DNA of 64,000 nucleotides, taken from positions 11,453 to 75,452 of the IMG/VR virus record IMGVR_UViG_3300023284_001411. One strand, written 5' to 3'. The translations under genes were made by a program, and so were the position numbers. Origin of the DNA: a virus. This document shows positions 3,097 through 40,665 of the stretch, piece by piece; position 1 is the stretch's first letter, and every line of letters begins with the position of its first letter. The notes under the pieces were generated by a model. That model was not told the DNA's origin. It was given only the letters and a program-made list of their open reading frames with translations, and ran no database searches.

Positions 3097-3734
3097 TTCC
3101 TCCGCTTTTTAAGTTGTCGTCCCTTCAGCTGGTCCTTCATAACCTCGTCGATGATGCCCAGTTTCTTCGCCTCCTCGGCGCTGAAGTACCAGGGCTTGTG
3201 TGTAGAGAGCTTCTCCTGCCACCACTTTAAGGTGCCGGCGCAGTAGCGCGCCATTACCTGGGAGTAGATGAGCTCTACCGCTGCTATCTCTTCCTCGTTA
3301 GCCTGGTAGTCCGTGCGTTCAAATCGCCCGTCCGGAGTGTCATACGCAGGGTGGAGCATAAACCTCGTCCGATGGGTCGCGAACCTTTGACCGGGAGTGC
3401 CGGCGGCGATGATCGGCACCGCGGCCGACATGCACGCGCCCGTGGCGATGGTCGTCAGGTCGTCCACCTCCTCGAAGAGGTCTACGATGGAGTTGGCAGT
3501 GTAGCACGAGCCGCCGAGAGAGTTGAGGAAGAGGCGCCGATTCTCCTTCCCCTTCGCCGCCGGGCCGTCGAGCTTGATCCCTGACTTCAGGAGCCCGTCC
3601 CAGAGGAACGAGAACATCCGATCGTCCACGTCGCCGGAGAAGATGAGGTCGTTCCCTCGTACGGCGGCGTAACCATCCATGTCGTAGGGGTTGTGGGCAT
3701 CATTCCTCGGCGAACGGATCAATCGCTTCCCCAT
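3093..3734 (-). CDS. ClpP-like protease (possible prohead protease)
   Basis: LFLNSLGGS, GACMSAA (Ser), RFMLHP (His), YFSAEEAKKLGIIDEV motifs; start taken at MGKRL. Confidence 0.8.
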   Translation of the reverse strand: MGKRLIRSPRNDAHNPYDMDGYAAVRGNDLIFSGDVDDRMFSFLWDGLLKSGIKLDGPAAKGKENRRLFLNSLGGSCYTANSIVDLFEEVDDLTTIATGACMSAAVPIIAAGTPGQRFATHRTRFMLHPAYDTPDGRFERTDYQANEEEIAAVELIYSQVMARYCAGTLKWWQEKLSTHKPWYFSAEEAKKLGIIDEVMKDQLKGRQLKKRRK

Positions 3735-5223
3735 CCGTGGGTTCTCCTGTCGGTATGTCCATTGCTGCGGTTTCTTCCTCGAGTTCTTTATCATTCTGAT
3801 CTTGATCGAACTCATCGCGCAGTGTCGCTCGCCGCTTGAGCTCCTCAATAAACTGGATCTTACTGATGTCACGGTTCGTTCGCGAAAACTTCAGGAGCTC
3901 GGAGTCACTGTTGATCAACTCCTCGGGGCCGAACTCCGTACTCACGGACACGGTCCCTGGGAGGTCGCCATCCGGCCGACTGAGCCATTTCTTCGTAATG
4001 AAGAGGGCCGTATTGATGGCGTCGTTGAATCGGATAGTTGCATCCTGTAGCGGGGAGGTCGCCTCCGCCGAGTCCAGAGCCTTGGCTGTGGCCGTGGTGT
4101 CCCCGGGCCGCTTCTTCAGGAAGTCGGCGCCATAGTTTCCCATCTGCTCTTCCAGGTCGAGGATGTCTTTGCGCCCGGCCTCGATCGCCTTGCCGGTTGG
4201 CTCGACGTAGTAAAACCGCCCCCGCGGGTCCGGGGTGAAGAGCGACCGCTTCGGGCCGACTTCGAAGACGGAATCATCTTCCTGCCCTCCCGACTGGGCC
4301 AGCATTGGGAACCGCCCGACCGTTAGGATGCTTATCTGGTCAGAGGTCGACTGCCAGTGGCGAACGTTGAGATCCACGAGGTCCTCGATCGGGCTCTTAC
4401 CCATCATGATGCCCGTCCGGTCGGCGTAGAAGGTGACGATAGGGATCTCATCGATGTCCATCCGCTGGGGTGGGTCCGTCAATACCCACTCCTCCTTCTT
4501 CGTCACCGGGTCCCTCATGAAGGTCCAGATGCTAAAGAAGACCCCCGCGGGGATGATCACTCCCTCGGGAGTGATCGTGTCGAACAGCTCGCGATCAAAA
4601 ACTCTAATGCGGTCGACAACGGCCTCGGTGAAACCGACGCGGACCACCTCCTGCTCGCGGATTCGAACGTGGGTCAACACCTCTCGCCCAACGATGATCT
4701 CCGCGGAGGCAAAGATCAGATTCTCCGGCGCGATGAAACTCCAGAACGGCCGCAGGCCGTCGGCTCGGTCGTCGGCCAAGGTTCGCGGGATTTCGTTCCC
4801 TTCCTCGTCGGTCCTCGCGAATGGCTGTGGGTGCTCAATCAGCACATGCCCAAAAGCTTTGGATAGACCTTGCATGAACCAGTTCCGTGCAAAGACGCCG
4901 AGAGCATTACCCTGCATGTCGATGTCGTCGAAGAGCTCCTCCAGTTGCGGCGCCACGTCGTCAGAAGGGAGAATGGGATCGCTAAACGGCCGCCCAACCC
5001 AGCTATCAAGGGTCAGCTGCGAGATGTTAAGGAGCGTCGTGACGTTAAGGCGATCAGTGTAGGCGTTTGGTTTCTCGTTCTCATGTTTGGGGAGCAGTGC
5101 CTCCCCGGCGGCTCGCATAGATTCCGTCCCGCCAAGCAAAGTGTCAACCTTTCCCCAGGCAGGGGCCATCAGGTCATACGCGGCAGATGTGGTGGAAGGA
5201 TCTTTCGATTTGTCATGTGGCAT
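3700..5223 (-). CDS. Portal protein (DUF4055-type)
   Basis: 507 aa; LLGGTESMRAAGEALLP N-terminus, DLVDLNVRHWQSTSD motif; immediately after terL. Confidence 0.9.
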   Translation of the reverse strand: MPHDKSKDPSTTSAAYDLMAPAWGKVDTLLGGTESMRAAGEALLPKHENEKPNAYTDRLNVTTLLNISQLTLDSWVGRPFSDPILPSDDVAPQLEELFDDIDMQGNALGVFARNWFMQGLSKAFGHVLIEHPQPFARTDEEGNEIPRTLADDRADGLRPFWSFIAPENLIFASAEIIVGREVLTHVRIREQEVVRVGFTEAVVDRIRVFDRELFDTITPEGVIIPAGVFFSIWTFMRDPVTKKEEWVLTDPPQRMDIDEIPIVTFYADRTGIMMGKSPIEDLVDLNVRHWQSTSDQISILTVGRFPMLAQSGGQEDDSVFEVGPKRSLFTPDPRGRFYYVEPTGKAIEAGRKDILDLEEQMGNYGADFLKKRPGDTTATAKALDSAEATSPLQDATIRFNDAINTALFITKKWLSRPDGDLPGTVSVSTEFGPEELINSDSELLKFSRTNRDISKIQFIEELKRRATLRDEFDQDQNDKELEEETAAMDIPTGEPTDGEAIDPFAEE

Positions 5224-13612: not shown

Positions 13613-13986
13613 TTTCTAACCTCCTTATTTGAGCTCTGAAAACGGGACGGATGAGGTATAACCAAGCAATCCACGTTCCCGCACGTGACCCGGTCCAGGG
13701 GCTTGGGGTCAGCGTAGAAGGCCGCGGCCACGAGCCCGCCCATGAGGATCAGGCGGTCGCCGGTCCTTCGGCAGTAGTCCATGAGCTCGTACGCCGTGCC
13801 GGCGGCCCGCGGGGCGTCCCAACCCTCCCCGGGCTCAAGGAGATTGACGAAGGTGTACCGGTCCAGGTCCCCGACCATGGCCGTCAGCTGGTCCCGGGCC
13901 TTGCCCTCGGGAATGGCCGAGTAAAACGGGCTCAGCTTGTGGATGATGCTGGACGACTGGACGCGCTCACCGACGAGGTAGATCAC
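13591..13986 (-). CDS. Uracil-DNA glycosylase-like protein
   Basis: GTG start, MIYLVGE, FVNLL, LILMGG, VIPHPS motifs of the UDG superfamily; coupled to Ro60 stop. Confidence 0.55.
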   Translation of the reverse strand: MIYLVGERVQSSSIIHKLSPFYSAIPEGKARDQLTAMVGDLDRYTFVNLLEPGEGWDAPRAAGTAYELMDYCRRTGDRLILMGGLVAAAFYADPKPLDRVTCGNVDCLVIPHPSRFQSSNKEVRKWVEEFC

Positions 13987-15506
13987 CCCGTCACGAACTC
14001 CCGCAGCACGGACGGCACCGAAGGATCGAAGCCCACGACGTCCAGCATCCCCGGGTCGTTGGGGTCGGCGATGGAGAAGTTGTTCGCCAACATGGACACG
14101 ACGATCAGTTTCGCGTTGGGATTGAGCTTTCGGCGGTACTTGTCGAGCGCGGCCTTCGGGTGAATGCCGCCGGCCCATGTCTGGTTGTCCGTGTAGACCA
14201 CGAAGGCATCGACCTCGATGTTCTTGCGGAGCGCATAGGTCATCGGCTGCGCGCAGTCCGTCCCGCCGAAGGGAAGTTTCGACGTCTTCCGCAGGACCTC
14301 GGTATAGGTCATGTCCCGAGTCACCGAGAGCGGTGAGAATATGTGGGTGAACGCCATGGGCACGCACAGCGGCTCAGTCCTCATAGTCACCAGGAGCATG
14401 GCCGCCGCGGCCTCTCGGCAAGTGACCCCGACGACGCCGGCACAGTCGGCCCAGGTCATGGAGCCCGAGACGTCCAGGCCCAGGAGGAAGCGCTTCCCGG
14501 ACGGCTTTACCTGGTCGAAGGACAGGCTGAAGGCCTCCTCGACCGCGGCCGAGATACCCGCGTCCACTTCCCATTTGAGGCTACCTCGCACGCCCTTTCC
14601 CTGCTTGTAGGTCTTGAGGGCCGAGAGCAGCTGGATCGGGTGAATACGGGACCTCTTGATCAGTACCGTGTCCGTCAGCCGGTTTTCGACGATCTTGTTC
14701 GCGTCCCAGCGTCCAGGACCCAGGACCTCCCGCGCCGAGAGCGCGCCGAGGTGCTTGAGGGTCGCCTGGTAGGGCATGAAAGGCAAGAGGGCCTGCCAAA
14801 CGTCCGTCCGCTTCTTGAGCTCAGGGGTCAGCATCTCATGGGAGATGCGGCCCGACTCCTTGATCAGCTGGATACACTCGTCGAGGCCCAGCCCTTCGAA
14901 GGGGTCGTTCCGTCCCTGGACAATGGCCCGAAAGAGGTGGTTGAGGCGCCCATTCTTCGGGTGCGTTAGCCGCAGGAGGTCGCGATGTGACCAGCCCTCG
15001 CGCTGGATGTATTTCAAGCGCTGATAGTCGACATTCTCCGTGGTTTTCGACAGATACCAGCCCCGGATCATGCGCCGCGGCCGGCGTCCCCAGCCGCGGA
15101 GCTCATTGACGTAGTGGGCGAAGCGGAAGAGGTGAAAGCCCGTGCGGACGGTGTTGTTGAAACGGTTTTCAACTATTCGCGCCGCCCGAGGGCTCAACGT
15201 ACAGAGGGCCAGGGACAGCATGACCGGGTCCGGGCGCGCTGCACGGCCCTGGTTCCAGATGTCGCAGATCTCCTCCGCTGTTCGCTCAGGATCCTCGGCG
15301 AGGCACTCGTGGATCGCCTTCAGGTTCTCGCGAACGAGCGGCCCTTCCTTGGTGTAGTACGTCCCTCCCTCAGCGCCCAGGATCAAGAACCGGCGGAGCC
15401 GTTCGAACGGGTCGACGGTAAAAGAGAACCCTCCCGCGCTGTTTTCAACTTGACCCGGGAGGGCCTCACTCTGGGGCGTGTCGAGGTGAGTGGCGTAATC
15501 CATCAT
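13983..15506 (-). CDS. rsr: Ro60/Rsr TROVE-domain RNA-binding protein
   Basis: QVENSAGGFSF, RLRRFLILGAEGGTYY, KYIQREGWSHRDLLRLTHP, vWA MIDAS LDVSGSM, GGTDCAQPM, VVYTDNQTW. Confidence 0.95.
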   Translation of the reverse strand: MMDYATHLDTPQSEALPGQVENSAGGFSFTVDPFERLRRFLILGAEGGTYYTKEGPLVRENLKAIHECLAEDPERTAEEICDIWNQGRAARPDPVMLSLALCTLSPRAARIVENRFNNTVRTGFHLFRFAHYVNELRGWGRRPRRMIRGWYLSKTTENVDYQRLKYIQREGWSHRDLLRLTHPKNGRLNHLFRAIVQGRNDPFEGLGLDECIQLIKESGRISHEMLTPELKKRTDVWQALLPFMPYQATLKHLGALSAREVLGPGRWDANKIVENRLTDTVLIKRSRIHPIQLLSALKTYKQGKGVRGSLKWEVDAGISAAVEEAFSLSFDQVKPSGKRFLLGLDVSGSMTWADCAGVVGVTCREAAAAMLLVTMRTEPLCVPMAFTHIFSPLSVTRDMTYTEVLRKTSKLPFGGTDCAQPMTYALRKNIEVDAFVVYTDNQTWAGGIHPKAALDKYRRKLNPNAKLIVVSMLANNFSIADPNDPGMLDVVGFDPSVPSVLREFVTG

Positions 15507-15524
15507 CCGTCCTTTCGAGAAAAA

Positions 15525-15659
15525 TGCCGAGCAAGTTTGTGAACGCAGTTTAATAACTGGCGCTCTCGGCTGTCTGAGCTACCCCGACTCAATTGCCGGG
15601 GGCAGGTTTCGCACCTGCGACCTCCAGTTCCATGATAATCTACATTCGTCGGCTCAGCA
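15525..15659 (-). ncRNA. Y RNA, YrlA-type (tRNA mimic)
   Basis: UGCUGAGCCGA...ACUUGCUCGGCA bulged-C stem enclosing T arm GCAGG-UGCGAAA-CCUGC, loop-closed acceptor CCCCGGC/GUCGGGG, D arm UA-GCUC..GAGC. Confidence 0.85.
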
Positions 15660-15676
15660 AAACCTATCCAAAAAGA

Positions 15677-15794
15677 ACCGAGCAAGGTGTGACCGTAGGA
15701 TGTGCCTATGCCATTTGGCGACATCGCGCAAGGCAATGACGGGATTCGAACCCGCATTCTTCGTGAAAAGATAACCTACAATCGTCGGCTCGGT
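15677..15794 (-). ncRNA. Y RNA, YrlA-type (tRNA mimic)
   Basis: ACCGAGCCGA...CCUUGCUCGGU stem enclosing T arm GCGGG-UUCGAAU-CCCGU, acceptor CAUUGC/GCGAUG, D arm GCC-AAAUGGCAUA-GGC. Confidence 0.85.
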
Positions 15795-15814
15795 GACAGT
15801 ACTGCAAAACAAAA

Positions 15815-15879
15815 AGCCGAACAAGTTTGTAGCCGAGGGGGATACTTTATGATGGTAACCCTCAGCCATCGGCTCGGCT
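15815..15879 (-). ncRNA. Minimal Y RNA
   Basis: AGCCGAGCCGAU-GGCUGAGGG...CCCUCGGCU-ACAAACUUGUUCGGCU then U-run. Confidence 0.75.
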
Positions 15880-15902
15880 AAACAGATTGGGCTCTAAATC
15901 AA

Positions 15903-15975
15903 AAACCGAACAAGGTAACGGTCGAAGGGAAAAACTTTCCATATAAAGGTAACCTTCAACCAATCGGCTCGGTTT
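15903..15975 (-). ncRNA. Minimal Y RNA
   Basis: AAACCGAGCCGAUU-GGUUGAAGG...CCUUCGACC-GUUACCUUGUUCGGUUU. Confidence 0.75.
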
Positions 15976-15993
15976 ATCTGAATGTCAAAGAAG

Positions 15994-16056
15994 GTCGAGC
16001 AAGTTTGTGACCAAAGGGTAAATGGTATGCTGATAACCTCCAGCCTTCGGCTCGAC
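15994..16056 (-). ncRNA. Minimal Y RNA
   Basis: GUCGAGCCGAA-GGCUGGAGG...CCUUUGGUC-ACAAACUUGCUCGAC. Confidence 0.75.
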
Positions 16057-16063
16057 TGATCCC

Positions 16064-16093
16064 AGTGTACCATCATCAGGGGTCCGAGGTCAA
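16064..16093 (-). promoter_or_regulatory. Sigma70-like promoter of Y RNA array / Ro60 operon
   Basis: TTGACC-N18-TACACT with extended -10 TG; predicted +1 falls at the 5' end of the first Y RNA. Confidence 0.6.
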
Positions 16094-29588: not shown

Positions 29589-29977
29589 CGGGGGTTCCTT
29601 TCTACAAGGCGTAATTTTGATACGGGTTTGGACTCGTCCAGCTGGTAAGGGTCCCAGGACTGCGGCGCCTCGTCCAGGAGGCGCGCCCCCTTCCGGAGGC
29701 GGTCGTAGTAGGCGGCGATGCGGTCAGCGACCACAGCCCGCTCCCCAAGGTCGAAGACCTCGAGCCCCTCAAGCTGCGGCGCCGGCCGACCGAAGATCTC
29801 CCGGAGCTTTTCGAGCCCCTTTCGAATGAATCGTGATGATGGAGTTGACATCAGAAATCTCCTTGGGTTAAAAGAGCTGCGGTACCAACAGGGGACGCTT
29901 TGTGGTTCCCAGGTTTCCCTGAGTTGGGGTCCGAAAATCCCTGAACGCTTTCGCGCTCGACCCCTACCGCAGACTCT

Positions 29978-30307
29978 TTATTTGTTCACCATGTGATAAA
30001 CGACATTGCCAAGCTTGTCGCAGTGGACGTATGAGGCGGTCTCTTCGACGCGGATGGTTTGATCCTTGGCCCGGCGGGTGGGGATCCGCAGACGGCGGAC
30101 GGTGTAGGTGTCATTCAGTTCGAGGGTGATCTGGATGAAGTGCGACCGACCCTTGAGAACCGTCCCGGTGACGCGGACGTCGAAGTCGTCGTCGGCAACT
30201 CCGGCCACAAAGCTCGCGTCTCTCCAGCCGCAGGACATCCGGGTCAGGGCGGGGATCTGTGCGATCATCGTCCGGGCCTTGGTGGTGACTTCTTCGGTTC
30301 TCGTCAT
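29978..30307 (-). CDS. Hypothetical early protein
   Basis: First gene after promoter copy 2; AAGGAG SD; ITLELNDTYTV motif. Confidence 0.65.
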   Translation of the reverse strand: MTRTEEVTTKARTMIAQIPALTRMSCGWRDASFVAGVADDDFDVRVTGTVLKGRSHFIQITLELNDTYTVRRLRIPTRRAKDQTIRVEETASYVHCDKLGNVVYHMVNK

Positions 30308-31198: not shown

Positions 31199-31327
31199 TT
31201 TTTCTCCTTGGTGTAGGTTACAGTCCGAGGGCATATCCTGCAGAGATCAGCAATGCGAACATGATGGCGGCGTAAATTATTAATCCCTTCATGACTTTCT
31301 CTCCTTGGTTCGTGGTGGTGGTTTTCG

Positions 31328-31374
31328 TTACAGTGAAGAATACGACTTTTTTCGTAGACGTCAACTGACAAAAA
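31328..31374 (-). promoter_or_regulatory. Early promoter copy 3
   Basis: TTTTGTCAG-TTGACG-N16-TATTCT-TCACTGTAA. Confidence 0.7.
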
Positions 31375-31376
31375 TT

Positions 31377-31776
31377 GTCATGTCGTGCCATGCCTATTCG
31401 CGCCGCGACATGTCGTGATTTGCCTGCCGTGTCAGGCCGCTCCGTGTCTTGCCTGCCGTGTCGTGCCCTGTCAAGTCTCACCGTGCCAGGCCCGGGCTTG
31501 TCTCGCCTGCCGTACTGTGCCTAACCAGGCCCGTTCTGGGCGGGCCGTGTCTGGACCTGTCTTGCCTGCTGTGCCGAGTCATGTCTTGTCCTGTCGAGAC
31601 ACGCCTATCCTGCTTTGCCTTGTCAGGTCTGGCCGCGTCAGGCCACGTCTCGCCTGCCGGGTCACGTCTCGCCTCACCCTATCGAGACTTGCCTGCCGTG
31701 CTGTGCCGTATCGCGTCGGGCCCCGCCTCGCCACGCCAAGTCTCGCCTGCCGAGTCGAGCCGAAACGAGCCGAGGT
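31377..31776 (-). repeat. Pentamer-register array (GRC-NN)n with RGCA separators; candidate guide-RNA array
   Basis: About 70 pentamers; eight RGCAGGM separators at 31745, 31691, 31652, 31608, 31564, 31505, 31451, 31422, spacings 54, 39, 44, 44, 59, 54, 29 (all 5n+4). Confidence 0.9.
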
Positions 31777-32250
31777 TTAGCCGATCATTGTTTTCAGAAG
31801 TTCTACCTCCTTGCGTACTCCTTTCAGCTCTTTGAGCTCCGCATACCGGTTTAGAATCCCGAGGAGAAGTCGGTAGGATTCTTCCAAAGCCAGCTTTCGC
31901 AGATCCGGGGATTTTTGGATTTTGTCGGTCGAATAGTATCCTGGACCGTCAGGGGCATTTTTGATGTGAAAGTGGGGGCGAAGCAATCGCTTCGCCCCAT
32001 CTGGTTCTTCGATAACTAAGCGATACGATCGCGACATGTCGGAAGCGACAGAGAGGCGATGCTTGTGGGCCGCGGTGGCGTCGTCCCATGGAAAAGCTTG
32101 ATGAAGAGGGGACGATCTCATGGTCGCTGCTTTCACGATCATTTCTGGCTCGACCTTGCCGTGTTTGTCTCGGAGGCTTTCTATTACCTCACCGGCAACT
32201 TGCGGCGAGACGTTGAACCTTGCGCCAGGGGTCCATTCGTAGGTCTTCAT
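31777..32250 (-). CDS. Conserved phage protein partnering the RAMP-like gene
   Basis: SPLHQAFPWDDATAAHKHRL motif; ATGA-coupled to upstream gene; stop abuts the array. Confidence 0.7.
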   Translation of the reverse strand: MKTYEWTPGARFNVSPQVAGEVIESLRDKHGKVEPEMIVKAATMRSSPLHQAFPWDDATAAHKHRLSVASDMSRSYRLVIEEPDGAKRLLRPHFHIKNAPDGPGYYSTDKIQKSPDLRKLALEESYRLLLGILNRYAELKELKGVRKEVELLKTMIG

Positions 32251-32897
32251 GACTTTTCCTCCAAGACTCGAAATGTGCCCCAGCCGCAGCCGGCGCTGTT
32301 TTTACTGAAAGGACGACCCTCACCGACTCCGATCTGCCTACCAGCTCTGATAAGCAAATTGAGAACATCGACGGGTTGAAACTGGTCCGCATCGAACTCG
32401 ATTGTGACGTTTGCCTGCCAGCCCGGACCCCACATTGGCCGGGCCCGAAGGTCCATGGTTCCGCTTGCAGGGAGAGGAACTGGCAACACGGACATTTTGG
32501 GCTCACCTTTGGTGATTTTCACCATACCGGTCTCATCTTCGTCGAAACCATCGGCGATTGTCACCAAGCTGCACTTCGCAATTGTCATTTTGAATCCGAC
32601 AAGCCTACAGGCGTCGATCATCGCACATCGAAAAGCAGCAGCCGGGATGCCATACCACCCTTCAGTGGATACATGAAGTGCCGCATCGCAGGCCTTTTGG
32701 AAGTCTTTTGGTTCCCGCTTCTTTCCTTTGCGGGCTGTAGAACCTGCCTCTTGTGCTTCTCGTATGGCGTTTCGAGCCTTCTCTGAAAATTTGTTTTGAA
32801 CGTAGGGGGTGGTTCCTTCGATCGTTGCCACGACCCGCTTGATATTCGGGGGTGGGATCACGATGCGACTTTGATCGTTCGTCTTCTTCGTCGTCAT
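32247..32897 (-). CDS. RAMP/Cas7-like RNA-binding protein
   Basis: N-terminal strand ATIEGTTP, YGIPAAAFRCAM helix, ARP, C-terminal Gly-rich loop AGRQIGVGEGRP....GCGWGTFRV. Confidence 0.7.
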   Translation of the reverse strand: MTTKKTNDQSRIVIPPPNIKRVVATIEGTTPYVQNKFSEKARNAIREAQEAGSTARKGKKREPKDFQKACDAALHVSTEGWYGIPAAAFRCAMIDACRLVGFKMTIAKCSLVTIADGFDEDETGMVKITKGEPKMSVLPVPLPASGTMDLRARPMWGPGWQANVTIEFDADQFQPVDVLNLLIRAGRQIGVGEGRPFSKNSAGCGWGTFRVLEEKS

Positions 32898-32981: not shown

Positions 32982-33293
32982 TTATTTATTATGCAACTTC
33001 GATGCCGGTTTCTTCCGGGGGTGTTCGGCCTGGAGGCGGACGATGGCCGCCCTCACGGCTTCCTCGTCGTCCCAGTCCAGGGCCTCGAGCTCCGCCCGGG
33101 TCTCCTTGGCGTCGGCCAGGATCCGTGCCCGTAGGACGACCCGCCCGGTCTCGAGGTGCGTCAAAAGGTATCCCTTACCCCCATCGAGATTTTTATGTAT
33201 GCCGAGGATGCGAGTCTTGGCAACCACGTCCATTTTGACCGTTGGTCCGGCCTTTCCACCATCAATCGGAACAAAACAGTATTCAGCCTTCAT
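32982..33293 (-). CDS. Hypothetical protein
   Basis: YLLTHLETG motif; coupled to primase stop. Confidence 0.55.
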   Translation of the reverse strand: MKAEYCFVPIDGGKAGPTVKMDVVAKTRILGIHKNLDGGKGYLLTHLETGRVVLRARILADAKETRAELEALDWDDEEAVRAAIVRLQAEHPRKKPASKLHNK

Positions 33294-35671
33294 CAGAGTC
33301 CTCCTTCGTCGTCGTTGATCACTTCGGAGCTCGGCCAGGAGTTTCGGCCGTAGTTCTCAACCCAGAAATCCCTGCACTCCTCCAGGGGCGGAAAGACGTA
33401 CCACCACGGCCGCGGAATGCTCATCGTCTTGCCGTCGGACCCCAGCGCCTCGACCGGGCTGGTCCGTTGCTGCCGCTCCGGGAAGTCCCCCGGGCAGATC
33501 TTCTTGAGGAAGCATCCCAGACGGGTGCTATTTGTCCGCCGCCCCGAGGTGAATTGGCGGGTGTAGGAGAAAAAATCATAGATCAGCTGGGCGCAGGGAA
33601 TCTCTGCCACCCACCCATCATCGGTTATCTGAAGACGGCCGTCACAGAGTTTGGTGTACCACCAGTCCTCCTCCGTGGTAAAGCTGTATTGCTTCTGTTG
33701 GTTCAAGGCATCTGTCTTTGGTACTTCGCGGACGTTGAAATTCGAGATATCGTAGACAGTGAGGAAGTGCAAGAGAGCTTCGCGGCCACCGGAGTCGAGC
33801 TGGGCCTGGATTTTTTCGAAGTAGCTGTGATCTTCACGGTTCATGTCGCCAACGTCGAGGACGAAGTATCGCCGAGCGTCGGGTCCGGCAGGGACAACCC
33901 AATCAGCGTTCGATGCCATGATGAGCTTGATGCGATTCGGGGCCATCTCGGCGTTGACATGCTTGGGCTCTATCATTACGGTTTTTTCTGTCACAAGAGT
34001 TTTAAGGACGGACTCATGCTCCTTATCTCCGGCCCAGAAGGCCTCGTCTCCGAACAGGACGGAGCAGTCGCGTAGGTGGGCATTAAAGTTCCCGGTCAGA
34101 TGCTTCGAGTTCGCGACGTGGAGGAAGTGGCAGCCCCAAAGGCTGCCGAAGGCCTCAGCGAAAAAACCCTTCCCAATACCCTCTTTGCCGCGCATGACAA
34201 TGGCAGCATGTCCTTGTGAGCCGGGCTTCTGTATTGCTCGCGCCATCCAGCCCAAGAGGTAATTGTAGTGCTCCTCGTTCTCGCCGCAGACGTTCTTGCG
34301 GACATGCTCCAGGAATAGAGAACAGTCGCCCGGTCTGGCCTCGCAACTAAATCCCCTCCATAGATTATAGGCGTCAGGGTCATCTTGCCCAGGGGCAAAG
34401 ATCAGCGTTTCGAACTGCCGACGATGTGGGTTGTTGAGCCACCACTTGCCCACCGGAGCGAACTGCGGGATTTTGTTCCCCTGCTTGTCCTTCTTCGACT
34501 CCACCTCGACGTACTTATTCATATAACGATTTCGGAAGTCTTCGAAGGTTTGTTTGCTTATACGGGTTCGCTTCATGGATGAATCATAGACCTCAGATAC
34601 AATGCGGCACTTGTCGCCGATGTCCGAGATGACCGCGTGCTTTTCGTTCAGCTTCCGGAGCCATGGATCGATGGCCTCGTCCCGGGCGGTCTCGATCTGT
34701 TTGATGGCGTAGCGCTCGACGCCAGCTCCTTTGTCAAGGACCGACTTGGAGATACCCCATTCGGGGTCGGTGATGACCCCGTAGATCTTCTCGTCCGAGA
34801 CCCCCGCCCGAACGAGATCACAGCATACGCGGAAGAGCACCTCTGATTTGGATGGGTACTTCGTCGGTTCGTCGGGGTCCTCGCCTTGGACGATCAGCAT
34901 CTTGCAGTAGTCGGAGACGTCGTCGCCCAGATCCTCGACGTCGTTGAGCCGCGGGATGTTCCCAGGCACTTGGATGCGGTGTGTAGTGAAGCCCTCGGAC
35001 GCTGGACCCTGGACGGCCGGCGCCTTCGTAAACTGCGCCAGGTCGTAGACCCGTTCGGGGTGCCACTCCACTACCTGGGCGAGAGCGAGTTGCTGACCGC
35101 GTTTTCTTTTTTTTGCGTTCGGCCGGTTGAGGGTTCCCGGGAGTCTCATGACGTGGTCGACGCTGTGGCAACTGTCCGCGTGAAAGAGGAGCTCAAGCTG
35201 GAGATTCCATCGCATGGCTTCCTCAGCCAGCGCCAGGTCACCATTGATCATGAACGACTCGAGGAGTTTCCAGAAGCCCTGATAGCCGCCGCCGGAGTCG
35301 TGTATGCGGGTGGCCGGGGGAATGTCGCCGGGCGGGTCCTGCAGCAAGGCCAGCATCCGCGCTCGCTCCTCGTCGATGTCTTCGCCCGCCTCCGGGTCGA
35401 GGTCGACGTGGAGCCAGGCGAGCTCCTTGACGTCCTCGCGCCTGGCTTTACTCGTCAGATCGCCCATCGTTGGGTTTACGTGGTAGTAAATGTTCCGGGT
35501 CGCCCCTTGCTGGGCGAGCCACGCTGCTATCGACGTGTCGCCCTTGTGGAATGTTTTTGTGGTGATCCCTTTTTGGTCGACCTCAATTGTCGTTAGAATC
35601 CATGGCCCATCGGGAGCCCACTCCTTGAGGAAGTTGATCGCGGTTTTGTAATTTGGTTCTGGTACCATCAA
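33293..35671 (-). CDS. Primase-helicase (RepB-like primase + SF3/DUF5906 helicase)
   Basis: WLHVDLD, SGGGYQGFW, MRLPGTLN; Walker A GKEGIGKG, FGDEA, ASNADW, DARRYF. Confidence 0.9.
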   Translation of the reverse strand: MMVPEPNYKTAINFLKEWAPDGPWILTTIEVDQKGITTKTFHKGDTSIAAWLAQQGATRNIYYHVNPTMGDLTSKARREDVKELAWLHVDLDPEAGEDIDEERARMLALLQDPPGDIPPATRIHDSGGGYQGFWKLLESFMINGDLALAEEAMRWNLQLELLFHADSCHSVDHVMRLPGTLNRPNAKKRKRGQQLALAQVVEWHPERVYDLAQFTKAPAVQGPASEGFTTHRIQVPGNIPRLNDVEDLGDDVSDYCKMLIVQGEDPDEPTKYPSKSEVLFRVCCDLVRAGVSDEKIYGVITDPEWGISKSVLDKGAGVERYAIKQIETARDEAIDPWLRKLNEKHAVISDIGDKCRIVSEVYDSSMKRTRISKQTFEDFRNRYMNKYVEVESKKDKQGNKIPQFAPVGKWWLNNPHRRQFETLIFAPGQDDPDAYNLWRGFSCEARPGDCSLFLEHVRKNVCGENEEHYNYLLGWMARAIQKPGSQGHAAIVMRGKEGIGKGFFAEAFGSLWGCHFLHVANSKHLTGNFNAHLRDCSVLFGDEAFWAGDKEHESVLKTLVTEKTVMIEPKHVNAEMAPNRIKLIMASNADWVVPAGPDARRYFVLDVGDMNREDHSYFEKIQAQLDSGGREALLHFLTVYDISNFNVREVPKTDALNQQKQYSFTTEEDWWYTKLCDGRLQITDDGWVAEIPCAQLIYDFFSYTRQFTSGRRTNSTRLGCFLKKICPGDFPERQQRTSPVEALGSDGKTMSIPRPWWYVFPPLEECRDFWVENYGRNSWPSSEVINDDEGGL

Positions 35672-35985: not shown

Positions 35986-36392
35986 CGCCGATCCCTTATG
36001 ACTTGTCGGAATTCCTCTTCATCAAGCCCATCGTACCATACCCAGTCAGCCCAAAGTAAGAGGGACTCCTTGGTTGACTTTCCAACGAATGCGGTAGCGA
36101 CTCCGCCCTCAAATAGAAGCCAATCATTCCCGACTTTCAAGAGGAGGTCCGCGACCCCGCCCGCTTCACAGCGCTTGGTGAGCCAGATCTTCTGGGCCGG
36201 GTTGAAGTGCTCGACGCGGAGGATTGTGTCCGCCCGTTTTGGCCAGGCCGCGACCGACTTGAGCTCGATCCAGCCGCCCGCGTAGTTGACGTCGGGCGTG
36301 CCGGCTCCTCCGACCCCGTTCTCCACACTGACGGCGTGCAGTGGCCGGAGGGCCTTGACTACCTTCTTTCGCATGTTCTGTTCAGAACTCAT
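35967..36392 (-). CDS. PD-(D/E)xK nuclease (VRR-NUC/Holliday junction resolvase-like)
   Basis: GTPDV..WIELK..Q.IWL motif. Confidence 0.8.
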   Translation of the reverse strand: MSSEQNMRKKVVKALRPLHAVSVENGVGGAGTPDVNYAGGWIELKSVAAWPKRADTILRVEHFNPAQKIWLTKRCEAGGVADLLLKVGNDWLLFEGGVATAFVGKSTKESLLLWADWVWYDGLDEEEFRQVIRDRRCSRKT

Positions 36393-36948
36393 GGTAATGC
36401 TCGATGGCCGCCTCCAATGTCCTTCCGTCGCTTTCAAGTCCCGTAGCGAACCAGCCCGGCGTCTTCTGCCGGGCGAAGAGTTCGATTCGCGGATGGTCTC
36501 CGACCAGCTTGATGATGCGGTCTCGGATCTCGGGGGGCTTCGAACTGTGGGGACGAGTGACCGGGGCTGTCACCACTTGCCGCTCAGCGGTGACGATTCT
36601 CTTCAGGCCCTTGCCTTTTCGGCCCAGGAGGACGACCTCGGCGCCGCAGCGACTCCAGAAACCGACACCGCAGAATGGATTCCCGTTTGTGTAGGTCTTA
36701 TTCCAGACGAAGGGCGCCGTCACATACTTGAATCCCCACGCCTTCAAGACGTTGAGGCAGATGTCGATCTTCGGGAACGTCGCCCACAAAAATAGGAGGG
36801 AGTCCTTATCGGCGATCTTGCCGACGTCCCAGCTCGCGATGTCCTCGTCCGTTGCCACCGTGTAGGCGTTCTCAGCCAGCCCGCCGAGCTTGCTTTTGCC
36901 GTTGTTGTAGGACCAGGGCGGGTCGGCGTAGATGATTTTGAACTTCAT
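36382..36948 (-). CDS. MT-A70 family adenine methyltransferase
   Basis: IIYADPPW, LFLWAT, HSSKP, IELFAR. Confidence 0.9.
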   Translation of the reverse strand: MKFKIIYADPPWSYNNGKSKLGGLAENAYTVATDEDIASWDVGKIADKDSLLFLWATFPKIDICLNVLKAWGFKYVTAPFVWNKTYTNGNPFCGVGFWSRCGAEVVLLGRKGKGLKRIVTAERQVVTAPVTRPHSSKPPEIRDRIIKLVGDHPRIELFARQKTPGWFATGLESDGRTLEAAIEHYHEF

Positions 36949-37478
36949 GGTACCACACTTGTTATAAGGTTTGGGGGTGCATAGTGAAGGAAACTTTTCG
37001 TGTATTCAATCTCGCAGAGGATATCCGGCATGGCGCGGTGCTTCACGTCAGGCTGTGGCTTCTCGATGCTCGGGAACATGACGCGGAAGTTATTCGTCTC
37101 GAAGTGTCGGTGATGGAATAGTGCCGCCGTGCGGGGGAGGTGGACCTCGCAGAAGCGACGGTCGAAGGACGGATTCGATCCGGCGAGAGGGAGATTGTAG
37201 AACTTGTTCTGTAGAATCCACTCCCTAAACTCCCGATCGATTCGGCTCCGTATGTGACTCGTGCCGGCACGTTCGCACGCCGCGAAAAGCCCGTTCTCGA
37301 TGTGCATCTTCGCAATGGAGGAATCGAAGGCGGGCAGTGCCTCGTGCCAGATGACACTCTTCCTCGAACCCAGCTGGTTTAGCGTCTGGTCTGTTACCAG
37401 TATCCCGATCTCGAGCAGCTCGTCCTTGTGTTCGTCCAGGCCAGTCGTCTCGACGTCGATCCACATTAGTCGATCCAT
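36945..37478 (-). CDS. Oligoribonuclease-like DEDDh exonuclease
   Basis: MWIDVETTGLD, LAGSNPSFDRRF, HRAMPDI. Confidence 0.85.
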   Translation of the reverse strand: MDRLMWIDVETTGLDEHKDELLEIGILVTDQTLNQLGSRKSVIWHEALPAFDSSIAKMHIENGLFAACERAGTSHIRSRIDREFREWILQNKFYNLPLAGSNPSFDRRFCEVHLPRTAALFHHRHFETNNFRVMFPSIEKPQPDVKHRAMPDILCEIEYTKSFLHYAPPNLITSVVP

Positions 37479-38218
37479 GTGTGTCCTTCCTTCCCCGGCC
37501 CATGGGCCGGAATCCAGATTGATTTGACAGTCTCGCCGACGCCCGTTCCCATACAAAGTCGGCACTTGTCGCAGGTCGTCTTCCTCCCGGCCTCGATCGA
37601 GGCGGGACAGAGAATGTTTTTTTTTAACTTTGATTCGATGGCGCTGTACGTTTTGGTAAATGTGTGCGGAACGACGAAGAACGTCCGCCAACCCGCATCC
37701 TGCGCCTCTCGTCGTTCTTCAAGGGTGTCGACTGACGCCATGCAGATGCGGCGGAGGTCCGGATCGGCCGTCCGCCAGATGTGGGTGTACCCCGTCCAGC
37801 GGTCGGCGTGGTGAATGAGCTCCTCCCACACTCGGGTCGGCACCGCTGCGGGGTCGCCGTACGACCCCACGCGGACGGAAAGTTCCCCTAAATATTTCCA
37901 GGCTTTTGCTGCATAGCAGTAATCCCAATTTTCATCGGCATACATATAAATGCCCCGCTTGTACGCCTCCCAGATCGTCCGTGGTTCGAGGTGCGTTCGC
38001 ACGTAGCACGTGCGCTCGCCGGTCTCGAGGTTGGCGCGGTAGCGACAGCCCCCGCAGATGGACTCGTCGCGCCCGTCGAAGGCCGCCTTGTGCGGCGGGA
38101 CGTCTTGCAGGAGGATCCACGTGCAGAGCATCCGCCCGATCTTGATGTTGCCACCCGGCCGGGCGATAGCAACGATCGGCTCGCCGTCGATGAGGGATTC
38201 ACCTTCGTAAAGAATCAT
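37466..38218 (-). CDS. Cys-rich phage protein (radical-SAM-like / Gp88-like)
   Basis: ICGGCR..CYV, VRVGSYGDP, GYTH.W, CPAS..TCDKCRLC..HG. Confidence 0.55.
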   Translation of the reverse strand: MILYEGESLIDGEPIVAIARPGGNIKIGRMLCTWILLQDVPPHKAAFDGRDESICGGCRYRANLETGERTCYVRTHLEPRTIWEAYKRGIYMYADENWDYCYAAKAWKYLGELSVRVGSYGDPAAVPTRVWEELIHHADRWTGYTHIWRTADPDLRRICMASVDTLEERREAQDAGWRTFFVVPHTFTKTYSAIESKLKKNILCPASIEAGRKTTCDKCRLCMGTGVGETVKSIWIPAHGPGKEGHTWID

Positions 38219-38673
38219 GCCTCGTAGACCACCTTCCCGGTTCCGGTGTCGAAGACGTGTGCCCAGGCATCAGCATCGGCACTGGCGAACACATCGTCCC
38301 AATCACCGCCGTGATTGAGGGCTCTGCCCTTCACTTCGTTTGCTACGTCTACGGCGTAGACTTGGGTGGCACCGCTGCCGACGATGTCCCAGGCACCACC
38401 GCGGGGATGGTCTCGTCGTCCGTTGCCAGCAAAAACTAAATATCGCTTTTTACAGACGTCGTCTCTCAGCGCGTTCATCCTTCTGTTAAGGTCTCTTTGT
38501 TTCTTGTCCTTGACTTCGCGCTCTCGCCGGCTCAGCTCGTCCGTGCGTTCCTTGAGCCTTGCATTCAGAGCGGCGCGGTCGTCAATAAGTTTCAGAATCT
38601 CTTCGAACTCCTCGTCGGGCGTCTCCGGGAATCGTTCGCGTAACCAGTTTTCCTTCGTCTGTACCTCGGGCAT
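38215..38673 (-). CDS. Hypothetical protein
   Basis: Coiled-coil N-terminus; P.GG.WD motif. Confidence 0.55.
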   Translation of the reverse strand: MPEVQTKENWLRERFPETPDEEFEEILKLIDDRAALNARLKERTDELSRREREVKDKKQRDLNRRMNALRDDVCKKRYLVFAGNGRRDHPRGGAWDIVGSGATQVYAVDVANEVKGRALNHGGDWDDVFASADADAWAHVFDTGTGKVVYEA

Positions 38674-38772
38674 GTTAGTTCCTTCCTGTAAAGGCTTCGT
38701 GGCGCCACCAGGCGCTCTCGATGGGAATCAAAAGTGTCCATCCGAACGGATTGAAAATCAACTCTATATGGG

Positions 38773-40665
38773 TCACTCAAGTTTTTCGGCATCACCCCAC
38801 GAGGGTCCGATCTCAATGTCGACTTTGGACGGGACCAGCATCTTGACGCACGTCTCCATGATCTCGGCGCACTCCCGCGCCTCCCGAGGGATCCCCACCG
38901 TTAGATCGAGCTCGTCGTGGACCTGCAGCTGGATCCGGTGTCCGGCCGCCTCGGCCAGGACGAGGGCCAATTTCGTTTGGTCCGCGCTCGAGCCTTGGAT
39001 GATCCGGTTCAGGGCCTTGTAGGCCCAGTCGTAGCCCCGCCCACCGGGCTTCTTCGGGAAGTGACAATGGCGCCCGGCCTGGGTTTTGACGATGCCGTAG
39101 GCTTCCGCCCTGATTTGGGCCTTCTTCGCCAGCTGGCGAATGAACGGGACCTTCTCGTCGAACTCGGCCAGGACCGCGGCCCCCTCGGGGCCGGCGGCCT
39201 CGCGGACAGCGCCGTAGATCTCTTTCATCTCAGTCGGTAGGCCCAAGTTTCGGCAGAGTTTCGCGCCGCCCATCCCGTAGCAGAGGCCCAGGAAGATGAT
39301 CTTTGCCTGACCCCGCTGGGCCTTGGTGGCGTCCGCGCCCCAGATCATGCGGGCCATCATCCAGTGGTTGTCAGTGGTCGGGTCGTTCCGGTACTTCTCC
39401 GCGGCCTCCAGCGCCCGGGTGCAGTGGGTCATGGTCGCGTAGTGGACGATCCAGCGGGGCTCCTGCTGGCTGTAGTCCAGGGCCGCCCAGAGGCCGCCCT
39501 CGTCTGGGACGTAAATGCTCCGCCATACCGAGTCCTTGGGCTGTTGTTGGAAGTTGAAGTCTGAGCTCGAGAGCCGGCCGTAGCGGGCGCCCTTGTCGTC
39601 TCCACTGTCCCTGGTGACCCGGAGCTGATTGAAGGTGCAGTGGGCGCGGCCCCGGATCAAGTGTTTACGGACGGAGTTCACGAAGTCTCGGCGGATCTTG
39701 TCGTTCTTCTTGGCCTCCAAGAATGCTTTGGCCACCGGGTGGTCGATCGCCCCGATGACGTCCTTCGCGGTGGCCGGTTGGCCGGAGGCGGTCCGGGGTA
39801 GTGCAATGCCCAGGGACATGAAGGCCCGCTCTATGAGTTTTTTCTGATCGAGCTCCCCGAGCCCGATGGAGACGCCCGTTTCGTGCTTGATCCGGGCCAG
39901 CGCGCTCGTTTCCTTCTGGGCGTAGATCTGCTCGACCTCGTCGAGCCGGTCTTGGTCGATCCGGACCCCACGTCGCCTCATCTTGACGAGGATCGGCAGC
40001 ACGCGGCTCTCGAGGTTGTAGATGTCCCATAGGCCTTGCTCGTCGATGACGCGCTCCTGGCGGCGCAGGAGGGCCAGGGGAAGGCGTACGTCCTGCTCCG
40101 CATAGGCGCCGACGTGGCGAGCCGGGAGTTTCCAGAGGTCCTTCTTTGGGTCCAGGCCCCAAGCCCGAGCGGCGAGGCCCAGTTGGCCCTCGCTCTTTCC
40201 TGGCATCTTGTAGCGGGCGGCGATGGCGTCGAGGCTGTACTGGAACTGGTTTTCATCGATCAGGGGCTCCGCCACTTGGACGTCGCGGAAGAACTTGACC
40301 CGGGGGAAGGTCACCCTATTTTCTTCCAGGTAGTCGAGGTCGTAGGGTAGGTTCGCCCCGACAAGGATCCCCTTGAAGTTTCGGCCCTGGTCCCTGAGAT
40401 ATCGCCAAATGGTCTCCGGGTCCACGTTCCCGCCGGACTCGTGGTGGATCGGGAGGTAGTGGGCCGGCCCGCGTTCGAGCGCGAAGGAGATGCCCACGAC
40501 GTAGCCATCCCGCCGGACGCCGGGACCAAGCTTTATTAGCTGTGGGTCCCGGGTCTCGACGTCGACCGCCACCCGCTTGGCATCGCCCCACGACGGGAGC
40601 TCGCTCATTCTCGGAGCCTCCCAGTCGCAGGGCGGGTCAAGGTAGGGTTGCTGCACGAATGTCAT
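38773..40665 (-). CDS. DNA polymerase family A with 3'-5' exonuclease
   Basis: VDVET, YAEQD, GRLSSS, LDYSQQEPR, AKIIFLGLCYGMG, IQGSSAD, QVHDEL. Confidence 0.95.
   Translation of the reverse strand: MTFVQQPYLDPPCDWEAPRMSELPSWGDAKRVAVDVETRDPQLIKLGPGVRRDGYVVGISFALERGPAHYLPIHHESGGNVDPETIWRYLRDQGRNFKGILVGANLPYDLDYLEENRVTFPRVKFFRDVQVAEPLIDENQFQYSLDAIAARYKMPGKSEGQLGLAARAWGLDPKKDLWKLPARHVGAYAEQDVRLPLALLRRQERVIDEQGLWDIYNLESRVLPILVKMRRRGVRIDQDRLDEVEQIYAQKETSALARIKHETGVSIGLGELDQKKLIERAFMSLGIALPRTASGQPATAKDVIGAIDHPVAKAFLEAKKNDKIRRDFVNSVRKHLIRGRAHCTFNQLRVTRDSGDDKGARYGRLSSSDFNFQQQPKDSVWRSIYVPDEGGLWAALDYSQQEPRWIVHYATMTHCTRALEAAEKYRNDPTTDNHWMMARMIWGADATKAQRGQAKIIFLGLCYGMGGAKLCRNLGLPTEMKEIYGAVREAAGPEGAAVLAEFDEKVPFIRQLAKKAQIRAEAYGIVKTQAGRHCHFPKKPGGRGYDWAYKALNRIIQGSSADQTKLALVLAEAAGHRIQLQVHDELDLTVGIPREARECAEIMETCVKMLVPSKVDIEIGPSWGDAEKLE

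What the first reader, a model, noticed from the sequence alone, without database searches (positions are those of the whole stretch)
31377..32897. Candidate RNA-guided system: RAMP/Cas7-like gene + partner gene + pentamer-coded (GRC-NN) array
Seen in sequence: on the minus strand, right after the stop of 31777-32250, ~400 nt read as near-constant triplets (mostly GGC/GAC, sometimes GTC/GAT/GGT/AGC) alternating with freely varying dinucleotides. A 4-nt RGCA insert resets the register eight times, and every separator spacing is 5n+4 (54, 39, 44, 44, 59, 54, 29). The upstream 216-aa protein has RAMP hallmarks (TIEGTTP strand, IPAAAFR helix, C-terminal GVGEGRP...GxGWGTF Gly loop). Established: RAMP/Cas7 proteins polymerise along guide RNA with a fixed periodicity. 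Inference: each subunit grips one GRC triplet and displays the NN pair, so each unit is a guide specifying a gapped target. There are no CRISPR repeats/spacers, no cas1/2 and no nuclease nearby, which suggests silencing of host or rival-phage DNA. I recall recent reports of similar phage RAMP + GGY/NN RNA systems ('VIPR'). That recollection is unverified, so novelty must be checked.
Basis: partly seen in the sequence, partly recalled or inferred. Interest (0 to 1): 0.95.

Follow-up and report, generated by a model that had tools for sequence, protein, structure and literature searches.

The report
Phage VIPR locus, staggered guide array
This uncultured 75-kb phage carries a VIPR system, the CRISPR-like RNA-guided DNA silencer first described in 2026, so it is a real but no longer new kind of system; its one unusual feature is that the middle letter of the constant triplet is free to be G or A.

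Summary
On the minus strand, 31375-31751 is a run of 76 pentamers (G-R-C + NN). It is cut eight times by a 4-nt RGCA step, with spacings 54/39/44/44/59/54/29. It starts at the stop codon of a 157-aa gene that follows a 216-aa gene.

The 216-aa protein folds as a Cas7-type RAMP. Its best hit among all PDB sequences is the SUSP1 Vipr protein. 116 of 126 sufficiently long related loci carry the same 5-nt-periodic arrays next to the gene. Unrelated control DNA (266 kb) has none.

This is a VIPR system (bioRxiv 10.64898/2026.04.26.720920), of the tail-less "staggered array" architecture (fig. S18).

Phages with 99-100% identical Vipr carry wholly different guide sets. One relative's guide matches a rival phage's AAA_24 ATPase gene 20/20 under the published 1-nt-skip rule. 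I found no target for this phage's own guides, and no RNA data.

One local oddity: triplet position 2 is only 49% G (37% A), against a clade median of 96%, while positions 1 and 3 stay conserved.

Verdict: a new member of a known kind. This scan already holds 436 similar notes in at least 332 genomes.

The parts
32247..32897 (-). vipr: 216-aa stand-alone RAMP (Cas7-like) protein. It has an RRM core, an inserted helical bundle (about residues 39-73), a thumb hairpin (133-141/148-156) and a C-terminal G-loop (190-207, GVGEGRP...GCGWGTF).
   Evidence: AF2 pLDDT 86.9. Foldseek PDB top hits are type VII Cas7 and Csm3, E 1e-5. VIA Z 8.7 to Csm3 9g9a_D, and the top 21 rows are all CRISPR RAMPs. Best PDB sequence hit is SUSP1 Vipr 36pp_D. 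hhalign to SUSP1 Vipr gives E 2e-5. phrog_4652.
31777..32250 (-). vap: 157-aa Vipr-accessory protein of unknown fold class. It overlaps the vipr stop by 4 nt.
   Evidence: Homologs (24-39% id) lie beside vipr in 58 of 80 IMG/VR loci. phrog_15946. AF2 pLDDT 92.4. No named match in PDB, BFVD, Pfam or the Atlas.
31752..31781 (-). Leader-like start of the array: six pentamer slots in register with the first junction. The first overlaps the vap stop codon. The next five (31752-31776) all carry NN = TC.
   Evidence: Parse. The low-complexity NN suggests a leader rather than a guide (inference).
31698..31751 (-). vrRNA unit 1: GGCA junction + 10 pentamers. NN = GA TT GT GA GG CC GC AC AC AC.
31659..31697 (-). 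vrRNA unit 2: GGCA + 7 pentamers. NN = AA TC AG GA GA GT CC.
31615..31658 (-). vrRNA unit 3: GGCA + 8 pentamers. NN = GA GT CT GC CA CT AA AA.
31571..31614 (-). vrRNA unit 4: AGCA + 8 pentamers. NN = TA GT TC AG AA AT TC AC.
31512..31570 (-). vrRNA unit 5: AGCA + 11 pentamers. NN = AA AG CA AC CC CA CG CT TA AC AC.
31458..31511 (-). vrRNA unit 6: GGCA + 10 pentamers. NN = GA AA CG CT AC GA TT AG AC AC.
31429..31457 (-). vrRNA unit 7: GGCA + 5 pentamers. NN = AA AC GC CT AC. This is the shortest unit.
31375..31428 (-). vrRNA unit 8: GGCA + 10 pentamers. NN = AA AC AT GC GC TA AT AC AT AA. It is followed by TTTTT (31370-31374), where the periodicity ends.
   Evidence: No consensus terminator was found.

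Best explanation
The locus is a VIPR (Viral Interference Programmable Repeat) system of an uncultured tailed phage. It sits at the end of the phage's replication module.

Proposed mechanism:
1. vipr, vap and the array are read as one minus-strand transcript (inferred).
2. Vipr protomers coat the RNA one per pentamer. They grip the constant G-R-C triplet with the G-loop and thumb and expose the two variable bases. This is shown for SUSP1 Vipr and inferred here.
3. Each 4-nt GGCA step (two pentamers sharing one G) breaks the 5-nt register. It therefore delimits eight guides of 5-11 repeats without any structured 3' tail (inferred). This is the published 'staggered array'.
4. Each filament binds double-stranded DNA whose sequence reads NN-x-NN-x (1-nt skip, usually the wobble base of a gene). 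It silences transcription of a competing phage or mobile element. The role of vap is unknown.

Specific to this phage: the second triplet base may be G or A.
For: - RAMP fold.
- Of 177,635 PDB sequences the best hit is SUSP1 Vipr (E 0.57 single sequence, 0.028 with a profile). The alignment places thumb R153 on R138 and the G-loop GVGEGRP on GVGDWRP.
- hhalign to the SUSP1 protein read from KT454805: E 2e-5 over 53 columns.
- 74/80 IMG/VR loci and 42/46 genome loci of at least 3 kb with a homolog carry a 5-nt-periodic segment beside it. 266 kb of unrelated contigs carry none.
- In 55 loci, 226 unique units are bounded by RGCAGGY at spacings of 5n+4, mostly 7-13 repeats. The triplet is G .93, G .87, C .83, and NN carries 0.01-0.06 bits.
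- Ten phages with 99-100% identical Vipr mostly share no guide.
- A guide of L034 matches 20/20 NN, in frame with wobble skipped, the Walker-A codons of the AAA_24 gene of L038. The two phages' Vipr are 97% identical. L034's own ortholog matches only 17/20. Chance is about 6e-4. The guide has the sense of the mRNA, so it can pair only with template-strand DNA.
- The array RNA is no more structured than shuffles (z +0.23). It has no Rfam match.
- The published mechanism was read.
Against: - There is no expression or processing data for this locus or for any staggered array. No sequencing run was listed. The paper confirmed only ribozyme-spaced and single-vrRNA architectures by sRNA-seq.
- No target was found for any of the window's nine units in its own genome, in 1.2 Mb of related loci, in IMG/VR, in JGI metagenomes or in 401 genomes of one candidate host phylum.
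- Sequence similarity to SUSP1 Vipr is weak and limited to the C-terminal third.
- In SUSP1, perturbing the GGY motifs abolishes silencing, yet a third of this array's triplets are GAC.
- In my small test the 1-nt skip did not clearly beat shuffled guides (42 vs 32 matches at 85% or better).
Confidence: 0.88

Rival explanations
1. A decaying VIPR locus: the genes are intact but the array has drifted (GGC to GAC) and no longer loads Vipr.
For: G at triplet position 2 is 49-50%, against a clade median of 96%. Perturbing the SUSP1 GGY motifs abolishes silencing. No targets were found. The protein has lost the near-invariant R141.
Against: The relaxation is position-specific. G1 (93-95%) and Y3 (95%) equal the clade medians, and all eight junctions and the 5n+4 register are intact. 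Neutral decay would erode all positions and the register. Both ORFs are intact. L029 shows an even freer position 2 with a large intact array.
Confidence: 0.07
2. The system targets RNA, as do the Csm3/Cmr4/type VII Cas7 proteins that are the closest solved folds, rather than DNA.
For: The top structural matches are RNA-targeting type III and type VII backbone subunits.
Against: The one perfect natural match in this clade has the same sense as the mRNA. It can therefore pair only with the template DNA strand. SUSP1 VIPR binds dsDNA and silences from either strand. No nuclease residues or partner were identified.
Confidence: 0.03
3. The periodic tract acts as DNA, for example as iterons or an origin next to the primase, or it is translated (+ strand ORFs of 131 and 128 aa).
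For: It lies 1.5 kb from a primase-helicase gene. Long + strand ORFs cover it.
Against: The tract travels with the RAMP gene, not with replication genes, across about 116 loci in many phyla and is co-oriented with it. A 5-nt period with unit lengths of 5n+4 and free NN cannot keep a reading frame or a protein sequence. Arrays differ completely between phages with identical Vipr. The ORFs have no Pfam match and exist because the + strand is A-poor.
Confidence: 0.02

Closest known systems
VIPR systems with 'staggered' vrRNA arrays (bioRxiv 10.64898/2026.04.26.720920, fig. S18 legend; type number not assignable here)
   Same: A stand-alone Vipr RAMP, a vap gene and a contiguous array of GGY/NN pentamers. 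Successive vrRNAs overlap by 1 nt: CACGG and GCAGG share a G, which gives the 4-nt step. The system is phage-borne and has no CRISPR or cas genes.
   Different: In this phage the triplet reads G-R-C (G2 49%, A 37%). The paper's text lists YNNGG, NNNGG, YNNNG and NNNNG, not a Y-NN-G-N pattern. The paper did not confirm the staggered architecture by RNA sequencing.
Type II VIPR of Escherichia phage SUSP1 (KT454805; PDB 36pp; 10.64898/2026.04.26.720927)
   Same: The protein size is similar (201-216 aa), as is the fold. Thumb Arg (R138/R153), G-loop acid (D177/E193) and Arg (R179/R195) align. The gene order is vipr-vap and the guides are pentamer repeats.
   Different: SUSP1 vrRNAs are separate GGT/NN units of about 100 nt, each with a roughly 40-nt pseudoknotted 3' tail. 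Here there is no tail and the units abut. SUSP1's G2-stacking Trp (W178) is Gly194 in all 75 clade members examined. Similarity is detectable only over the C-terminal third.
Class 1 CRISPR-Cas backbone subunits (Cas7/Csm3/Cmr4, type VII Cas7)
   Same: The RRM + thumb + G-loop fold, and polymerisation along a guide with fixed periodicity (periodicity from established knowledge of Class 1 effectors).
   Different: There are no CRISPR repeats or spacers, no Cas5/6/8/10/11, no adaptation genes, a 5-nt rather than 6-nt period, and a noncontiguous guide.
Cyanophage Cy-LDV1 (BK059895) g34/g33
   Same: This is the closest homolog in a named phage record (54% identity). 5-nt-periodic tracts flank g33.
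   Different: Both genes are annotated only as hypothetical proteins. The host is Cylindrospermopsis. The arrays were not parsed in detail.

Membership tests
VIPR system | Stand-alone RAMP protein with RRM core, thumb and glycine-rich loop | tested here: met
   AF2 pLDDT 86.9, with a b1-a-b-thumb hairpin-b-a2-G-loop-b4 layout. Foldseek E 1e-5 to type VII Cas7 and Csm3. VIA Z 8.7, rmsd 4.3, 146 aligned residues to Csm3; the top 21 rows are all RAMPs.
VIPR system | Sequence homology to an experimentally characterised Vipr (SUSP1) | tested here: inconclusive
   SUSP1 Vipr is the top PDB hit, but at E 0.57 (single sequence) and 0.028 (profile). hhalign gives probability 77%, E 2e-5, over 53 C-terminal columns only. 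The aligned residues include the published RNA-contact residues.
VIPR system | Minimal locus: vipr plus a vap gene, no CRISPR array or cas genes | tested here: met
   vap is conserved next to vipr in 58/80 loci. TRF finds no CRISPR-like repeats in 25-40 kb. PADLOC finds no cas genes. The neighbours are primase, MT-A70, an exonuclease and PolA.
VIPR system | Adjacent tandem pentamers with a constant GGY and variable NN | tested here: met
   76 pentamers: G1 93%, Y3 95%, NN 0.11 and 0.16 bits. Deviation: G2 is only 49% (A 37%). The clade consensus is GGC/NN.
VIPR system | NN hypervariable between close relatives while protein and triplet stay constant | tested here: met
   Ten loci with 99-100% identical Vipr share 0 guides in most pairs. 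This was tested on relatives, because no close relative of this phage was found.
VIPR system | vrRNAs are expressed, processed and bound by Vipr | not testable with these tools
   No sequencing run was listed for the locus.
VIPR system | Guides match natural DNA targets under the 1-nt-skip rule | tested here: inconclusive
   Window guides gave nothing beyond chance. One relative's guide gave a 20/20 in-frame match to a rival phage's AAA_24 gene.
VIPR system | Encoded by a virus or provirus (typical, not obligatory) | tested here: met
   The window is part of an IMG/VR virus record of 75,452 bp, estimated 100% complete by CheckV.
Type II VIPR (SUSP1 / P. fulva clade) | Each vrRNA ends in an invariant structured 3' tail of about 40 nt (a pseudoknot in SUSP1) | tested here: not met
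   Units abut through a 4-nt step with no tail. The array is no more structured than shuffles. SUSP1 tails were seen directly for comparison.
Staggered-array VIPR (fig. S18) | Contiguous vrRNAs whose pentamer registers overlap by 1 nt | tested here: met
   There are eight junctions ...CACGG/GCAGG... sharing one G, and all spacings are 5n+4. The same holds in 55 related loci. The legend was read.
CRISPR-Cas class 1 | CRISPR repeat-spacer array and a multi-subunit cas operon | tested here: not met
   There are no direct repeats of CRISPR type, no cas hits and only one RAMP gene.

The most novel reading that the evidence does not exclude
In this Vipr clade the second triplet base is not read. All 75 members have Gly where SUSP1 has the G2-stacking Trp. 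This phage (G2 50%, A 39%) and L029 (G2 26%) keep G1 and Y3 but let position 2 drift. That would make the minimal grammar G-N-Y/NN, a pattern the VIPR paper's text does not list. It would also mean that a bare 1-nt register slip, with no tail, ribozyme or Cas6-like enzyme, is enough to punctuate a multi-guide transcript.
Probability: 0.3. Interest if true: 0.5.

Novelty: new member of a known kind. Interest (0 to 1): 0.35.

Why it matters
VIPR was described only in April 2026. Its experiments cover type II (SUSP1, P. fulva) and, by RNA sequencing, types III and V.

This locus belongs to a very large clade: about 3,500 protein clusters at 50% identity, spread over Planctomycetota, Verrucomicrobiota, Pseudomonadota, Cyanobacteria and others. 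The tail-less staggered arrays of this clade have not been verified at the RNA level.

The locus is compact (1.5 kb) and cleanly parsed into eight guides. It naturally mixes GGC and GAC triplets. That makes it a convenient construct for two questions:
- how filaments are delimited without a tail;
- whether the second G is needed.

Both questions bear on how small and flexible an engineered VIPR guide can be. As a discovery it adds an example, not a principle.

Tried and rejected
Searches for targets of the window's guides all came back at chance level.
- Own genome and 0.6 Mb of related loci: best matches do not exceed shuffled guides. The single 13/14 match of unit 2 at window 17308 has chance about 0.02 per guide and gave no clear frame support.
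- Exact-core scans of IMG/VR for units 5, 8, 1 and 6 gave 11, 0, 13 and 6 hits. These are near the count expected by chance and the flanking dinucleotides do not extend the match.
- Unit 5, 18-nt core, in JGI metagenomes: 3 hits, none extending.
- Unit 5 with up to 3 mismatches in 401 genomes of the phylum of a Phycisphaerales MAG: 4 hits against 1 in the reversed control, about 9 expected.
- Unit 1's first eight dinucleotides spell the [DE]FVEGPAT motif of SU10-type portal genes in two phage lineages, but only at 16/20 overall. The hit count equals chance and this phage has no such portal. I treat this as a lead only.

Other dead ends.
- A clade-wide test of skip 0-3 on 284 guides against 1.2 Mb was underpowered.
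- No RNA or DNA sequencing run was listed.
- No close relative of the phage was found through its primase.
- vap has no named fold or family in Pfam, PDB sequence, Foldseek PDB, VIA-wide, BFVD or the Atlas. Its N-terminal domain was not searched alone.
- No protein correlate of the relaxed position 2 was found. R141P is nearly unique to this phage, but L007 has P141 with normal arrays and L029 has canonical residues with a freer position 2. Relaxation does not follow GC content.
- No Rfam family (including hammerhead) and no consensus terminator were found.
- The VIPR type number could not be assigned because the paper's type tables are not held.

Full report
**What is in the sequence**

On the minus strand the gene order is as follows:
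- a primase-helicase (33293-35671; DUF5906/VapE, phrog DNA primase);
- a 103-aa ORF;
- a 216-aa ORF (32247-32897);
- a 157-aa ORF that overlaps it by 4 nt (31777-32250);
- from the stop codon onward, about 400 nt with a 5-nt period.

Further upstream lie MT-A70, an RNase T-like exonuclease and a family A DNA polymerase.

Lag-5 self-identity in the tract is 0.517, against about 0.22 at other lags. No other part of the window or of the 75,452-bp genome shows this signal. The genome is an IMG/VR virus record, judged 100% complete.

In register the tract is 76 pentamers:
- position 1 is G in 93%;
- position 2 is G 49%, A 37%;
- position 3 is C 83% (Y 95%);
- the last two positions are nearly free (0.11 and 0.16 bits).

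The five pentamers before the first junction all carry TC and look like a leader.

**The protein**

Pfam finds nothing for the 216-aa protein. With an alignment of 40 homologs, AlphaFold2 gives a confident model (pLDDT 86.9).
- Foldseek against the PDB returns type VII Cas7, Csm3, Cas7-11 and Cmr subunits at E about 1e-5.
- An independent all-against-all structural search gives Z 8.7 to Csm3. Its first 21 rows are all CRISPR RAMPs.

By sequence, the best of 177,635 PDB sequences is 'SUSP1 Vipr protein' (36pp), at E 0.57 with the single sequence and 0.028 with the profile. I read the SUSP1 protein directly from KT454805. hhalign then gives E 2e-5 over the thumb-to-G-loop region.

That alignment puts R153 on SUSP1 R138, E193 on D177 and R195 on R179. 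The cryo-EM paper names these residues as contacts to the GGY motif. SUSP1's W178, which stacks on the second G, is Gly194 in all 75 clade members examined.

**What is known**

VIPR systems were reported in April 2026 (10.64898/2026.04.26.720920). They consist of:
- a stand-alone RAMP (Vipr);
- an accessory gene (vap);
- vrRNAs made of GGY/NN pentamers. The NN pairs read double-stranded DNA with one base skipped between pairs, which causes transcriptional silencing of competing phages and satellites.

The structural paper shows one protomer per repeat. The GGY is sequestered and the NN is displayed.

The paper lists array architectures beyond type II. One is 'staggered arrays' in which vrRNAs overlap by 1 nt (fig. 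S18 legend). That is what the 4-nt step here is...CACGG and GCAGG... share one G. According to the text, staggered arrays were not among the architectures confirmed by RNA sequencing.

**Relatives**

The family is very large:
- 3,672 hits in the 90%-clustered protein set;
- 3,465 clusters at 50% identity;
- 486 places in IMG/VR;
- 55 places in species-representative genomes, spanning Planctomycetota, Verrucomicrobiota, Pseudomonadota, Cyanobacteria, Gemmatimonadota, Bacteroidota and others.

A 5-nt-periodic segment lies beside the gene in 74 of 80 IMG/VR loci and in 42 of 46 genome loci of at least 3 kb. The named Cyanophage Cy-LDV1 also has one. 266 kb of unrelated contigs have none.

In 55 loci the RGCAGGY junction recurs at spacings of 5n+4, on the strand of the gene. 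This gives 226 unique units, mostly 7-13 repeats. Their triplet is G .93, G .87, C .83 and their NN is essentially random.

A vap homolog flanks vipr in 58 of 80 loci. Its model is confident (pLDDT 92.4), but no library gives it a name.

**Evidence that the units are guides**

Ten IMG/VR phages have 99-100% identical Vipr proteins, yet most pairs share not a single unit.

I searched 284 guides from all fetched loci against 1.2 Mb of those loci. One perfect match appeared under the 1-nt skip:
- A 10-repeat guide of L034 matches 20 of 20 informative bases in the AAA_24 (Sak4-like) ATPase gene just downstream of the VIPR locus of L038. The two phages' Vipr are 97% identical.
- The match is in frame, with the skipped bases at wobble positions, over the Walker-A codons YGQPGVGKTT.
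- L034's own ortholog differs at three informative bases because of two amino-acid changes.
- The chance of one such match in this search is about 6e-4.
- The guide has the sense of the mRNA, so it can only pair with the template DNA strand. This argues for DNA targeting rather than RNA targeting in this clade.

As a whole the small test did not separate skip 1 from shuffled guides.

**This phage's own guides**

I found no target for them. The own genome shows nothing beyond shuffles, consistent with the absence of self-targeting the paper reports.

Exact-core scans of IMG/VR (four units) and JGI metagenomes (one unit) gave only chance-level hits that do not extend. So did a mismatch-tolerant scan of 401 genomes of one candidate host phylum.

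Unit 1's first eight dinucleotides spell a conserved portal motif in two phage lineages, but only at 16/20 overall and at chance frequency. The host is unknown. No close relative of the phage was found. No sequencing run was listed.

**What is unusual here**

Among 68 loci with at least 20 parsed pentamers, this array has the second-lowest G at triplet position 2: 0.50 against a median of 0.96. Positions 1 and 3 are at the clade norm: 0.95 and 0.95 against 0.98 and 0.97.

Only L029, from a 189-kb AT-rich phage, is freer at that position (G 0.26), reading G-N-Y.

The relaxation is position-specific and the register is intact. Simple decay is therefore unlikely.

I found no protein correlate. 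The window's Vipr has lost the near-invariant R141 at the thumb tip. However, L007 shares P141 with normal arrays, and L029 has canonical residues.

The paper's text lists YNNGG, NNNGG, YNNNG and NNNNG repeats. A Y-NN-G-N pattern is not among them, though the figures and tables were not available to me.

**Rivals**

- A decaying locus (0.07): see the position-specific argument above.
- RNA targeting (0.03): argued against by the sense-strand match.
- DNA iterons or a translated repeat (0.02): excluded by three points. The tract travels with the RAMP gene across phyla. Unit lengths of 5n+4 break any reading frame. The tract turns over completely between phages with identical proteins. The + strand ORFs of 131 and 128 aa have no family and arise because that strand lacks A.

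**Verdict**

This is a genuine, cleanly parsed VIPR locus of the staggered-array kind. It is a new member of a known kind. This scan already holds 436 similar notes in at least 332 genomes. Its modest added value is the natural GGC/GAC mixture and the compact eight-guide array. Both make it a good construct for testing how tail-less arrays are punctuated and whether the second G matters.

Noticed in passing
L034:5361-5420 (guide) and L038:2611-2640 (target): A vrRNA of one IMG/VR phage matches 20/20 informative bases, with wobble skipped, in the Walker-A codons of the AAA_24 ATPase gene of a sister phage (Vipr 97% identical). Its own ortholog matches 17/20. This is a clean natural example of self/non-self discrimination by two amino-acid changes.
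   Followed up: yes
L029:4660-6170: The array of a 189-kb AT-rich viral contig keeps the GGCAGG junctions but uses GTT/GAT/GAC/GGT/GGC/GTC triplets (G2 only 26%). This amounts to a G-N-Y/NN grammar.
   Followed up: partly
L055, L058, L061, L063, L064, L066, L068-L071: Ten viral contigs have 99-100% identical Vipr but almost completely different guide sets. Some arrays contain near-duplicate guides that differ by one dinucleotide or by added repeats. This suggests guide turnover by duplication and cassette exchange.
   Followed up: partly
L115 (Cyanophage Cy-LDV1, BK059895: g34, g33; locus 3591-3840 and 4341-4630): A named cyanophage of Cylindrospermopsis carries an unannotated VIPR locus. g34 is 54% identical to the window's Vipr, and 5-nt-periodic tracts lie on both sides of g33. 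It sits next to the cI-like repressor and excisionase region.
   Followed up: partly
window 31385-31835 (+): Two long + strand ORFs (131 and 128 aa) run through the array. They are artefacts of an A-poor strand. Gene callers may annotate them as hypothetical proteins.
   Followed up: yes
window 31337-31364 (-) and 31218-31310 (-): A sigma-70-like promoter match (TTGACG-16-TATTCT) lies directly after the array. It precedes a 30-aa hydrophobic ORF (MKGLIIYAAIMFALLISAGYALGL) that has a good Shine-Dalgarno sequence.
   Followed up: no
L099:783-805, L104:1962-1984 (SU10-type portal genes): The first eight dinucleotides of the window's unit 1 spell, in frame, the conserved [DE]FVEGPAT motif of portal genes in two phage lineages that differ only at wobble bases. 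The overall match is 16/20 and the hit count is at chance level.
   Followed up: partly
window 36382-40665 (-): The replication module upstream of the VIPR locus holds an MT-A70 methyltransferase, an RNase T-family exonuclease and a family A DNA polymerase.
   Followed up: no
window 13983-16093 and 29870-29978: Other first-reader notes on this genome (phage Ro60 with a Y-RNA array; a compact structured intergenic RNA) surfaced in the findings index. I did not examine them.
   Followed up: no
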